A stretch of 64,000 nt of DNA, taken from Escherichia phage DCP80. This document shows positions 52,708 through 53,040 of this stretch, piece by piece; within the stretch, counting starts at the first letter, position 1; each line of letters opens with the position of its first letter. The position numbers and the translations under genes are program-made. The notes beneath the pieces were generated by a model. The model worked only from the letters and a program-made list of their open reading frames with translations. It was not told where the DNA came from and did no database searches. Where the stretch lies: sequence record PQ671644.1, one strand, 5' to 3'.

Positions 52708-53040
52708 GAAACCGGGTCGCTACCGGTAAGTCGTCGGACTGAAGTTCCCTGAATAAGACCCGACTTTAAGGCGTACATGAGTTGACCTCTTAAAGTCCCT
52801 TATCTCACAGCTGAAACGGCGCACCGAATTATCGATTCGAGGAAATATCTTTGCCGTAAGCCGAGTAGCGTTTTTGACGGAACGTTCGGATATGGTCGAG
52901 ATATGGCCTTTTAAAAATATTGAGTAGCGTCAACTGCTTAATAACCGGGTTCGAATCCCGGCGTTTCGTACAAACACTTGCCTTGCAGGTGGAACCCCGA
53001 CAAGGTATAGCCCCTTCCGAAAGGTTGGGGCTTTTTTATA
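52708..53040 (+). ncRNA. Candidate structured stable RNA with tRNA-like 3' domain (T4 rnaC/rnaD-like position)
   Basis: About 330 nt with no convincing ORF; tRNA T-arm-like CCGGG-TTCGAAT-CCCGG at 52945-52961; ends in GCCCC..GGGGC hairpin plus T-run at 53011-53037. Confidence 0.35.

What the first reader, a model, noticed from the sequence alone, without database searches (positions are those of the whole stretch)
52708..53040. About 330-nt ORF-free region after the tRNAs with a tRNA-like T-arm, candidate stable small RNA
The region has no credible ORF, contains CCGGG-TTCGAAT-CCCGG (52945-52961) followed by a possible acceptor-like strand, and ends in a hairpin with a T-run. T4 encodes two stable small RNAs of unknown function next to its tRNA genes, so this may be a homologue or a novel structured RNA.
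Basis: inference. Interest (0 to 1): 0.5.

Follow-up and report, generated by a model that had tools for sequence, protein, structure and literature searches.

The report
Phage T4 stable RNAs rnaD and rnaC
The ORF-free stretch is this T4-like phage's copy of two long-known but functionally unexplained stable RNAs (T4 species 2/rnaD and species 1/rnaC) plus the tRNA-operon terminator, and comparison across phages shows that rnaC is a tRNA look-alike whose "anticodon" loop is paired to a second loop of the same RNA.

Summary
The T-arm CCGGG-TTCGAAT-CCCGG is at 52945-52961, an acceptor-like strand follows it, and a GC hairpin with a T-run lies at 53009-53037.

rnaD (species 2) is at about 52703-52826. 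rnaC (species 1) is at 52832-52970. A conserved hairpin and the operon terminator follow. rnaC is 100% identical to the annotated rnaC of phage RB3 and 98.6% identical to that of T4.

These RNAs have been known since the 1970s. Papers from 2010, 2022 and 2025 still call their function unknown. They are not in Rfam and are often mis-annotated as CDS or tRNA.

- **rnaC:** across 22 distinct sequences from at least 6 genera, covariation supports a tRNA-like four-arm fold. It has an acceptor stem with invariant tandem U·U, a 66-nt arm in place of the D-arm, a 10-bp anticodon-like arm and a canonical T-arm. The two apical loops, UUGACG and CGUCAA, are perfectly complementary, and they change together to UUGGCG/CGCCAA in Marfavirus.
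- **rnaD:** it has a covariation-supported, non-tRNA fold.
- **Function:** a tRNA mimic or decoy role is inferred only.

Verdict: already known in kind, of moderate interest.

The parts
52133..52159 (+). T4-type middle (MotA-dependent) promoter-like site upstream of the tRNA/stable-RNA operon: TATGCTTTA, 12 nt, TATTAT
   Evidence: A regex match to the MotA-box/-10 consensus; the consensus itself is from my memory of T4 literature. PMC2330249 states that in T4 a middle promoter just upstream of the tRNA cluster drives a transcript that ends after the species I gene. Function here is inferred, not shown.
52219..52452 (+). Three tRNA genes: Met-CAT 52219-52293, Asn-GTT 52298-52370, Arg-TCT 52377-52452
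   Evidence: ARAGORN and Rfam RF00005 at 61-72 bits.
52468..52707 (+). 79-aa ORF inserted between tRNA-Arg and rnaD. Its stop codon TGA (52705-52707) overlaps the 5' end of rnaD
   Evidence: PHROG 33509, E = 5e-57, unknown function. The ORF is absent from RB3 and T4, where rnaD abuts tRNA-Arg.
52703..52826 (+). rnaD (T4 species 2 RNA) homologue. It has a 5' hairpin ACCGG-GUCGCUA-CCGGU (52711-52727); a long-range helix GUCGUCG (52730-52736) with CGGCG-C-AC (52817-52824); a helix at 52743-52746 with 52809-52812; a helix at 52753-52756 with 52798-52801; and a variable central hairpin. It ends CACCG where T4 has CACCA
   Evidence: Boundaries were transferred from the RB3 and T4T annotations through the alignments. 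Structure comes from RNAalifold and pair counts on 18 sequences: 92.9% of cells paired, 8 pairs changed on both sides, 0/500 shuffles. nhmmer hits are.
52827..52831 (+). 5-nt spacer AATTA between rnaD and rnaC. The same or a near-identical spacer (AATTA, AATAA or AACAA) follows the CCA of the upstream tRNA in most phages where rnaC sits in a tRNA array
   Evidence: (upstream contexts).
52832..52970 (+). rnaC (T4 species 1 RNA) homologue, 139 nt, a tRNA-like four-arm RNA
   Evidence: 100% identical to RB3 rnaC and 98.6% to T4T rnaC. MFE -50.2 kcal/mol, z = -4.55. On 22 distinct sequences, 97.7% of cells are paired and 23 of 41 pairs change on both sides, with 0/500 shuffles reaching this. CM R1 scores 153 bits.
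52833..52839 (+). rnaC acceptor-like stem, 5' strand CGAUUCG. It pairs with 52962-52968 (CGUUUCG), and the tandem U.U at the 4th and 5th layers is invariant
   Evidence: Helix 1 is 100% paired and shows an A:U to G:C swap at the third pair; columns 5/6 and their partners are invariant U.
52840..52909 (+). rnaC long arm in place of a D-arm. It has a 3-bp base AGG/CCU, an internal loop with conserved GG (52905-52906), several stems, a 4-nt 5' bulge (52865-52868, containing the invariant U52866), and a 5-bp apical stem
   Evidence: Two sequence classes of this arm exist; BLAST aligns only nt 73/74-139 between them. The arm length is nevertheless held to within 1-3 nt.
52874..52879 (+). Loop 1 of rnaC, UUGACG, one partner of the proposed 6-bp loop-loop (kissing) helix
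   Evidence: Invariant except in Marfavirus-type sequences, which have UUGGCG.
52918..52943 (+). rnaC anticodon-like arm: a 10-bp stem (52918-52927 with 52934-52943) and a 6-nt loop 2, CGUCAA (52928-52933), complementary to loop 1
   Evidence: 9 of 10 stem pairs change on both sides. The loop is invariant except for CGCCAA in Marfavirus-type sequences, which restores full complementarity with UUGGCG.
   Evidence: Helix 8 is 100% paired, and its middle pair occurs as U:A, G:C, A:U and U:G.
52975..52991 (+). Conserved hairpin CACUUGC-CUU-GCAGGUG just 3' of rnaC. It is also present in phages that lack rnaC. It may be a 3'-processing or protective element
   Evidence: fold; conserved in RB3, LQ5 and IME341. 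The function is inferred.
53009..53037 (+). Intrinsic terminator of the tRNA/stable-RNA operon: AGCCCC, 12 nt, GGGGCU, then U6
   Evidence: PMC2330249 reports that T4 tRNA-cluster transcription terminates after the species I gene. Other records annotate a 'terminator' under the homologous match (rows H32, H37, H43).

Best explanation
The region is the distal end of the phage's tRNA operon. It encodes the homologues of T4 rnaD (species 2; about 52703-52826) and rnaC (species 1; 52832-52970), then a conserved hairpin and the operon's intrinsic terminator (53009-53037).

Biogenesis (inferred). The RNAs are transcribed with the tRNAs from a middle-type promoter at about 52133-52159 and cut out of the polycistronic precursor by the host tRNA-maturation machinery. 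rnaC presents an acceptor/T-arm minihelix, the kind of substrate that RNase P and 3' trimming enzymes accept. rnaD can obtain its ends from the processing of its neighbours.

Structure (shown by covariation). rnaC is a tRNA-shaped RNA. A length-conserved 66-nt arm replaces the D-arm, and its apical loop UUGACG is complementary to the 6-nt 'anticodon' loop CGUCAA. rnaD is a separate structured RNA made of a 5' hairpin and a long interrupted stem closed by an invariant GUCGUCG/CGGCG(C)A helix.

Function (inferred, about 0.3). rnaC acts in trans as a non-decoding tRNA mimic. Its acceptor/T-arm/elbow half can engage a tRNA-binding host or phage factor as a decoy, sponge or adaptor, for example against tRNA-directed host responses. 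Its anticodon end is locked by the loop-loop helix, so it cannot be decoded or attacked there. rnaD is likewise a host-interaction RNA.

My confidences are about 0.95 for identity and biogenesis context, about 0.8 for the fold and the loop-loop pairing, and about 0.3 for the decoy function.
For: Identity. 804 phage records match the region, and RB3, RB5, T4T, RB6 and Kha5h annotate rnaC or rnaD under the match. The alignment to RB3 is collinear through rnaD, the spacer, rnaC, the hairpin and the terminator. Identity to RB3 is 100% for rnaC, against 97% for tRNA-Arg, 77% for rnaD and 81% or less for the flanking DNA.

Operon context. The element is on the same strand as the three tRNAs. A MotA-type promoter-like site lies upstream. 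T4 literature describes a single transcript that ends after species I. In T4, Northern blots detect RNAC and RNAD late in infection (PMC9697503).

tRNA-like handling. In the Karamvirus, Moonvirus and Gelderlandvirus loci with mapped tRNAs, rnaC sits between tRNA-Trp and tRNA-Gly with tRNA-like spacing.

Fold. On 22 distinct sequences, 97.7% of cells are paired and 23 of 41 pairs change on both sides. None of 500 shuffles reaches this, and slid controls give 35-49% pairing.

Loop-loop helix. It is 100% paired in all 22 sequences. Two sequence-unrelated classes of the long arm retain it, and in all six distinct Marfavirus-type sequences examined A:U has become G:C on both sides. Arm lengths are held within 1-3 nt. 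Mismatched loop combinations are predicted to be weaker than the matched ones.

rnaD fold. 92.9% of cells are paired and 8 pairs change on both sides, including a G:C to C:G swap in the closing helix.

Hint of a host-interaction role. A single convergent SNP in rnaD arose in all lines of a T4-like phage adapted to a semi-permissive E. coli host (PMC12685909).
Against: No experiment here shows transcripts, RNA ends or any function in this phage.

The function of rnaC and rnaD is explicitly unknown in the literature I could read.

Some related phages lack rnaC cleanly (LQ5, IME341, TH40), and others carry no long T4-type rnaD next to rnaC. Neither RNA is therefore universally required. From memory, T4 deletions of the tRNA region are viable on laboratory hosts.

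The 100% identity of rnaC could partly reflect homing-endonuclease-driven gene conversion in the tRNA region rather than purifying selection alone.

The loop-loop helix rests on one independent compensatory event plus invariance. Whether it forms within one molecule or between molecules cannot be decided by sequence.

The gene encodes UACAA rather than NCCA after the acceptor stem, and rnaD here ends CCG, so tRNA-like 3' ends are not encoded. No decoy target is identified.
Confidence: 0.85

Rival explanations
1. The complementary loops of rnaC pair between molecules rather than within one. rnaC would then form dimers or rings 'hand in hand', as phi29 pRNA does, and serve as an RNA scaffold late in infection.
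For: Two exposed, perfectly complementary 6-nt loops covary. RNAC accumulates late in T4 infection. An intramolecular kiss would require the roughly 27-bp arm to fold back on itself, which is not proven.
Against: A conserved 4-nt bulge lies directly under the 5-bp apical stem. By my own helix-length arithmetic, the arm up to that bulge spans about 20-23 base-pair layers, and the apical stem, kissing helix and 10-bp arm together span 21 (5 + 6 + 10). That fits a fold-back closure (the geometry is inference). From memory, the T4 packaging motor works without RNA in defined in-vitro systems. Rfam found no pRNA-like match.
Confidence: 0.15
2. The RNAs have no trans function. rnaC would be a decayed or expanded tRNA gene, and rnaD a structured spacer. 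They would persist as processing punctuation and 3'-end stabilisers for the tRNA operon.
For: Both lie inside tRNA operons and are bounded by tRNA-like processing contexts. Some phages have lost one or the other. Their function has remained unknown for decades.
Against: rnaC is at least as conserved as the neighbouring tRNAs. Its arm lengths, invariant loops, invariant tandem U.U and a covarying tertiary contact are maintained across at least 6 genera and two arm classes. That is far more constraint than a cleavage signal needs. A convergent adaptive SNP maps to rnaD.
Confidence: 0.1
3. The region encodes small proteins, as annotated in several public records ('hypothetical protein' CDS over rnaC or rnaD).
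For: ORFs of 51 aa (+ strand, TTG start) and 81 aa (- strand) overlap rnaC and the terminator. Phage 212, F48 (vBKpnF48_274), NM4.3, Ursula and others annotate CDS there.
Against: Substitutions are pairwise-compensatory in stems. Length changes of 1-3 nt occur among homologues. The annotated CDS differ in frame, strand and extent between records. The homologous T4 and RB3 loci are annotated as RNAs that have been detected experimentally.
Confidence: 0.02
4. The conserved sequence acts at the DNA level. It could be a target or immunity site for tRNA-region homing endonucleases, which recognise the T-arm DNA motif, or TTGACG...CGTCAA could be an inverted-repeat protein-binding site.
For: SegB recognises an 11-bp T-psi-C stem-loop motif in tRNA genes. 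rnaC carries GGTTCGAATCC. rnaC behaves as a cleanly insertable and deletable module.
Against: The covariation follows RNA helices, including G.U pairs, which are meaningless in DNA. The two hexamers sit exactly in hairpin loops. This window's operon has no seg gene next to the RNAs.
Confidence: 0.03

Closest known systems
Bacteriophage T4 species 1 RNA (rnaC) and species 2 RNA (rnaD)
   Same: The sequences are homologous: rnaC is 98.6-100% identical, and rnaD is 77% identical overall and 96% in its first 55 nt. The order is the same (rnaD, 5-nt spacer, rnaC, hairpin, terminator), as are the strand and the operon position distal to tRNA-Arg.
   Different: A 79-aa ORF separates tRNA-Arg from rnaD here. 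The central hairpin of rnaD is replaced. rnaD ends CCG rather than CCA. An 11-nt GNRA mini-hairpin present before the terminator in RB3 is absent here.
Canonical tRNA (Rfam RF00005)
   Same: It has a 7-layer acceptor stem stacked on a 5-bp T-stem with a UUCGAAU loop. Its position and spacing inside tRNA arrays match, and a conserved GG lies where a D-loop would be.
   Different: There is no D-arm and no U8/A9 linker. The anticodon-like stem has 10 bp and a 6-nt loop with no U33. The acceptor stem carries tandem U.U. No CCA is encoded. ARAGORN does not call it, and the best tRNA-clan score is 16.6 bits against a threshold of 47.
Other tRNA-like non-decoding RNAs processed by tRNA enzymes: MALAT1 mascRNA, MHV68 vtRNAs/TMERs, bacterial YrlA, the tmRNA tRNA-like domain (all from memory)
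   Same: They use the same concept: an acceptor/T-arm module lets the tRNA machinery produce and stabilise an RNA that does not decode.
   Different: No sequence or Rfam relationship was found. None of these, as far as I recall, locks its anticodon-like loop with a loop from an expanded D-arm. In YrlA the RNA termini lie in the Ro-binding stem, not in the acceptor stem.
   Same: Two hairpin loops are fully complementary over 6 nt, and compensatory changes keep the pairing.
   Different: Both loops here belong to the same tRNA-like molecule. Whether they pair within or between molecules is undetermined. There is no link to packaging or plasmid copy control.

Membership tests
T4 rnaC (species 1 RNA) | Sequence homology to the annotated or experimentally defined rnaC | tested here: met
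   139/139 identical to RB3 rnaC and 137/139 to T4T rnaC.
T4 rnaC (species 1 RNA) | Last gene of the tRNA operon, immediately upstream of the operon terminator | tested here: met
   T4 context from PMC2330249.
T4 rnaC (species 1 RNA) | Conserved secondary structure shared with family members | tested here: met
   CM R1 scores 153 bits; covariation.
T4 rnaC (species 1 RNA) | Accumulates as a stable RNA of about 140 nt in infected cells | not testable with these tools
   Shown for T4 only (Northern blot, PMC9697503).
T4 rnaD (species 2 RNA) | Sequence homology to the annotated rnaD | tested here: met
   77% identity over 121 nt to RB3. 96% over the first 55 nt and 89% over the last 27 nt to T4T. 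The central hairpin differs. nhmmer gives E = 1e-30 for the identical SP18 copy.
T4 rnaD (species 2 RNA) | Directly follows the CCA of tRNA-Arg and ends in CCA | tested here: not met
   Here a 79-aa ORF intervenes and the 3' end reads CACCG. Several other phages also have an ORF upstream or a non-CCA end, so this is not a strict family feature.
T4 rnaD (species 2 RNA) | Shared fold: 5' hairpin, GUCGUCG/CGGCG(C)A closing helix, UGUU/ACAG helix | tested here: met
Canonical tRNA (RF00005 / ARAGORN) | Cloverleaf with a D-arm, a 5-bp anticodon stem and a 7-nt loop, scoring above the model threshold | tested here: not met
   ARAGORN finds only the three true tRNAs. The Rfam tRNA clan's best hit on rnaC is tRNA-Sec at 16.6 bits against a gathering score of 47. 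The anticodon-like loop is 6 nt on a 10-bp stem.
Canonical tRNA (RF00005 / ARAGORN) | T-arm with a GTTCGAATC-type loop stacked on a 7-bp acceptor stem | tested here: met
tmRNA | tRNA-like domain plus a tag-peptide ORF, detectable by ARAGORN or Rfam | tested here: not met
Any curated Rfam 15 family | Score at or above the gathering threshold | tested here: not met
   No family reaches threshold in 52703-53040. rnaC and rnaD appear to have no Rfam model.
Intrinsic (rho-independent) terminator | GC-rich hairpin immediately followed by a U-run at the end of an operon | tested here: met
   6-bp stem with 5 G:C pairs followed by U6. The pattern scanner missed it because 12 nt are enclosed. Termination itself was not tested.
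   Complementary loops exist, but their molecularity is unknown. There is no Rfam pRNA match.

The most novel reading that the evidence does not exclude
rnaC defines an undescribed architecture of tRNA mimic. An expanded D-arm folds back so that its loop (UUGACG) forms a 6-bp kissing helix with the anticodon-like loop (CGUCAA). This yields a self-locked, non-decodable tRNA look-alike conserved across T4-like phages of enterobacteria. With rnaD, it would act on host tRNA-binding or tRNA-targeting factors that influence host range.
Probability: 0.3. Interest if true: 0.65.

Novelty: already known. Interest (0 to 1): 0.35.

Why it matters
The locus is a copy of T4 species 1 and 2 RNAs. These are among the oldest sequenced RNAs that still lack a function.

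For this genome, the practical value is correct annotation. Public records of near-identical phages label the stretch 'hypothetical protein' or a misc_feature. In other genera rnaC is called a 95-nt tRNA-Met or a CDS.

More broadly, the comparative analysis gives a covariation-supported fold and a specific tertiary contact. That contact can be tested with two point mutations. The analysis also shows that rnaC and rnaD are independent modules that move within tRNA arrays.

Together with a published convergent adaptive SNP in rnaD, this makes the long-standing question of what these RNAs do directly testable.

Tried and rejected
- **Rfam.** I searched at gathering thresholds over the whole window and at E up to 10 over 52400-53200. 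Nothing credible appeared for the region. Weak hits to PrrF, snoRNAs, NsiR1 and tRNA-Sec were all far below threshold and were rejected as chance.
- **ARAGORN.** It makes no tRNA or tmRNA call in the region. Its call of a 95-nt 'tRNA-Met' over part of PG7 rnaC is a false positive driven by the T-arm.
- **Host origin.** There is no blastn match in 5,426 complete E. coli genomes. A loop-plus-T-arm pattern scan of 185,579 species genomes gave 38 loci, and none matches the rnaC covariance model at E up to 1. I found no evidence of a bacterial homologue.
- **Parent tRNA.** The T-arm and acceptor of rnaC are not notably closer to any phage tRNA I compared. The idea that it is a degenerate tRNA-Asp (loop contains GUC) fails, because Marfavirus has GCC.
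- **More diversity.** Metagenome and IMG/VR pattern scans added only a few new variants.
- **rnaD as a tRNA-like RNA.** It has no T-arm before its 3' strand and no 5' acceptor strand at its 5' end. The local hairpin AGUC-GUCG-GACU is disfavoured, because F48 breaks it while keeping the long-range helix.
- **Late promoter.** There is no TATAAATA between 51000 and 53300. A sigma-70-like site at 52673-52700 just upstream of rnaD is within chance expectation, with 10 sites found against 7.7 expected.
- **Literature.** Four searches for a described function or a described kissing loop found none. Miller et al. 2003 is not held.
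Full report
**What the window is.** The 1-kb stretch around the finding is 100% identical to Escherichia phage 212 and 99.9% identical to Shigella phage SP18 (Gaprivervirus, Tevenvirinae). Hundreds of T4-like phages match parts of it. ARAGORN and Rfam find three tRNA genes on the + strand: Met 52219-52293, Asn 52298-52370 and Arg 52377-52452.

**Checking the observation.**
- The T-arm CCGGG-TTCGAAT-CCCGG is at 52945-52961, exactly as stated.
- The following CGTTTCG (52962-52968) pairs with CGATTCG (52833-52839).
- The region ends in AGCCCC, 12 nt, GGGGCT and then T6 at 53009-53037.
- Only short, unsupported ORFs overlap the region.
- Two corrections apply. A 79-aa ORF (52468-52707, PHROG 33509 of unknown function) lies between tRNA-Arg and the region. 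The region also holds two RNA genes, not one.

**Identity.** A blastn search with 52700-53045 finds 804 phage records, and 679 of them cover at least 80% of the query. In RB3 and RB5 the features under the match are 'rnaC | rnaD'. RB3 annotates ncRNA rnaD ('species II RNA') and rnaC immediately after tRNA-Arg. T4T annotates misc_RNA rnaD ('species 2') and rnaC ('species 1').

The pairwise alignment is collinear. Transferring the boundaries gives these coordinates:
- rnaD: about 52703-52826
- spacer AATTA: 52827-52831
- rnaC: 52832-52970

Identity to RB3 differs sharply by segment:

| Segment | Identity to RB3 |
|---|---|
| rnaC | 100% (98.6% to T4T) |
| tRNA-Arg | 97% |
| rnaD | 77% |
| trailer and terminator | 81% |
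| upstream ORF (187-nt partial match) | 81% |
| downstream gene | no match |

**What the literature says.**
- A 2022 omics study calls them RNAs 'of yet unknown functions', classifies them as late, and confirms this with a Northern blot using an RNAC probe (PMC9697503).
- A 2008 paper describes one roughly 1.75-kb T4 transcript from a middle promoter upstream of the tRNA cluster. It ends after the species I gene and is the precursor of the tRNAs and both stable RNAs (PMC2330249).
- I found no paper that assigns a function.
- From memory, not verified here: 1970s-80s work showed that species 1 and 2 arise from a dimeric precursor and that RNase P makes the 5' end of species 1. T4 deletions that remove the tRNA region are viable on laboratory hosts.

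**Operon context in the window.** A MotA-type middle-promoter-like sequence (TATGCTTTA, 12 nt, TATTAT) lies at 52133-52159, just upstream of tRNA-Met. No late-promoter TATAAATA occurs in 51000-53300. After rnaC comes a conserved hairpin (52975-52991), then the terminator.

**Structure of rnaC.**
- The single sequence folds to -50.2 kcal/mol, with z = -4.55 against shuffles.
- I collected 22 distinct homologues from Tequatrovirus, Gaprivervirus, Karamvirus, Moonvirus, Gelderlandvirus, Kanagawavirus, Marfavirus and metagenomes.
- RNAalifold and explicit pair counting support a four-arm, tRNA-like fold. 97.7% of 902 cells are paired and 23 of 41 pairs change on both sides. None of 500 shuffles reaches the observed values, and sliding the partners gives 35-49% pairing.
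- The acceptor stem is CGAUUCG/CGUUUCG. Its third pair swaps A:U for G:C, and the tandem U.U at layers 4-5 is invariant.
- The T-arm is canonical.
- The 'anticodon' arm has 10 bp, 9 of which covary, and an invariant 6-nt loop.
- A 66-nt arm starts directly after the acceptor stem, in place of a D-arm.
- That long arm exists in two sequence classes. BLAST aligns only nt 73/74-139 between them. Even so, the arm length, a 4-nt bulge under a 5-bp apical stem, and the total length of 138-142 nt are all conserved.

**The loop-loop contact.**
- The apical loop of the long arm is UUGACG (52874-52879). The anticodon-like loop is CGUCAA (52928-52933). They are exact reverse complements.
- Both are invariant in every sequence of both arm classes, with one exception. 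All Marfavirus-type sequences carry UUGGCG and CGCCAA, a change on both sides that preserves all six pairs.
- Matched duplexes are predicted at -5.5 and -7.6 kcal/mol. Mismatched combinations give -0.4 and -4.9.
- This is good evidence for a 6-bp kissing helix, though it rests on one independent compensatory event plus strong invariance.
- My helix-length arithmetic gives about 20-23 base-pair layers up to the bulge, against 5 + 6 + 10 layers back.
- A conserved GG (52905-52906) sits in the internal loop three pairs from the junction. It may play the part of D-loop G18/G19 against the T-loop. This is inference.

**Genomic behaviour.**
- In the Karamvirus, Moonvirus and Gelderlandvirus loci where tRNAs were mapped, rnaC lies inside the tRNA array between tRNA-Trp and tRNA-Gly. 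It is about 5 nt after the upstream CCA and 5-12 nt before the next tRNA, and no long T4-type rnaD lies beside it.
- Conversely, LQ5, IME341 (Dhakavirus) and TH40 have rnaD but lack rnaC. In LQ5 and IME341 the junction is a clean excision of the spacer plus rnaC.
- All 19 distinct rnaC genes whose downstream flank was examined are followed by CA, and 18 of the 19 by CAA. This suggests a constrained 3' end or processing signal that resembles, but is not, CCA.
- A covariance model of rnaC (R1) finds one copy in the window. It finds none in 38 bacterial loci fetched by a loop-plus-T-arm pattern. No E. coli genome matches the region.

**Structure of rnaD.**
- RNAalifold and pair counts on 18 sequences support four helices: a 5' hairpin, a long-range closing helix GUCGUCG/CGGCG(C)A, a UGUU/ACAG helix, and a covarying helix that flanks a hypervariable central hairpin.
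- 92.9% of cells are paired and 8 pairs change on both sides, with 0/500 shuffles reaching this.
- Shorter, more divergent rnaD-like copies occur in Marfavirus about 500 nt upstream of rnaC. They also occur in Moonvirus tRNA arrays, for example between tRNA-Asn and tRNA-Asp in KM16. One of them supplies a G:C to C:G swap in the closing helix.
- rnaD is not tRNA-like. Its ends can be set by the processing of its neighbours.
- In this window its 5' end overlaps the stop codon of the inserted ORF, and it ends CCG rather than CCA.

**Mechanism.**
- Shown: homology, operon position, the folds, and loop complementarity with covariation.
- Inferred: co-transcription with the tRNAs; excision by RNase P and 3' trimming; and stability conferred by compact structure.
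- Most likely function (about 0.3): rnaC is a non-decoding tRNA mimic. Its acceptor/T-arm half engages a tRNA-binding factor while its anticodon end is sequestered. rnaD is a second host-interaction RNA, and the convergent SNP is the only functional hint for it.
- Rivals: an intermolecular scaffold (0.15), processing punctuation only (0.1), a DNA-level element (0.03), and small proteins (0.02).

**Novelty and score.** The element is already known in kind (T4 species 1 and 2). It is unannotated or mis-annotated in this lineage and absent from Rfam. The added value is the covariation-backed fold and the testable kissing-loop lock. I could not find that contact described, but the 1970s primary papers are not in the searchable library. 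Interest is 0.35.

Noticed in passing
window 52468-52707 (+): A 79-aa ORF with a GAGGA ribosome-binding site (PHROG 33509, unknown function) is inserted between tRNA-Arg and rnaD, where T4 and RB3 have no gene. Its TGA stop overlaps the conserved 5' end of rnaD, so the rnaD 5' end must be cut out of an mRNA here. Other lineages (L013/L014, L015/L007) also appear to have an ORF ending just before rnaD.
   Followed up: partly
L003 1554-1648 (Enterobacter phage PG7); L017 616-753 (Klebsiella phage F48); L002 2229-2402 (SP18): rnaC is mis-annotated in public records. In PG7 it is a 95-nt 'tRNA-Met', and ARAGORN reproduces that call. In F48 it is the CDS vBKpnF48_274. In SP18 it is a 'similar to hypothetical protein' misc_feature. 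Many other records place hypothetical-protein CDS over rnaC or rnaD.
   Followed up: partly
L019 (phage LQ5) about 720-730; L021 (IME341) about 713-720; L020 (TH40): Close relatives carry rnaD but lack rnaC. In LQ5 and IME341 the sequence runs GCGCACCG|AACACTTGCC, a clean loss of the AATTA spacer plus rnaC between short AA repeats. TH40 has other DNA in its place. rnaC therefore behaves as a discrete insertable or deletable module.
   Followed up: partly
L004 555-660 (Salmonella phage KM16); L010 about 793-868 (- strand): A shorter, divergent rnaD-like element of about 100 nt sits inside Moonvirus tRNA arrays, between tRNA-Asn and tRNA-Asp in KM16. It has a different 5' hairpin sequence but keeps the AAGUCGUC, GUUCCCUG, UCACA and GGCGCA motifs.
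   Followed up: partly
window 47688-47971 (+): Rfam detects a full-length group I catalytic intron (RF00028, 74 bits, E = 6e-17) about 4.5 kb upstream of the tRNA cluster. The host gene was not examined.
   Followed up: no
window 53147-53581 and 53662-54108 (+): The two ORFs downstream of the terminator look like tandem paralogues. Both end with a ...(V/A)(V/S)VQSYASNFRK... motif and share an internal ...N(A/G)ARRA(L/V)ID... motif. They have no detectable DNA match in the RB3 or T4T loci that were fetched.
   Followed up: no
window 52673-52700 (+): A sigma-70-like site (TTGTTA, 16 nt, TACAAT; 9 of 12 matches) ends about 3-8 nt before the rnaD 5' end. It could be a dedicated promoter for rnaD-rnaC in phages with the inserted ORF. 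However, the number of such sites in the region is within chance expectation (10 found against 7.7 expected).
   Followed up: no
window 52962-52975 and all rnaC loci: The gene sequence after the rnaC acceptor stem is GUACA in all 19 distinct sequences whose flank was examined (GUACAA in 18 of them), whatever lies downstream. One Marfavirus type has GUCCAA. It resembles N-CCA with one C replaced and may be a conserved 3'-end or processing determinant.
   Followed up: no
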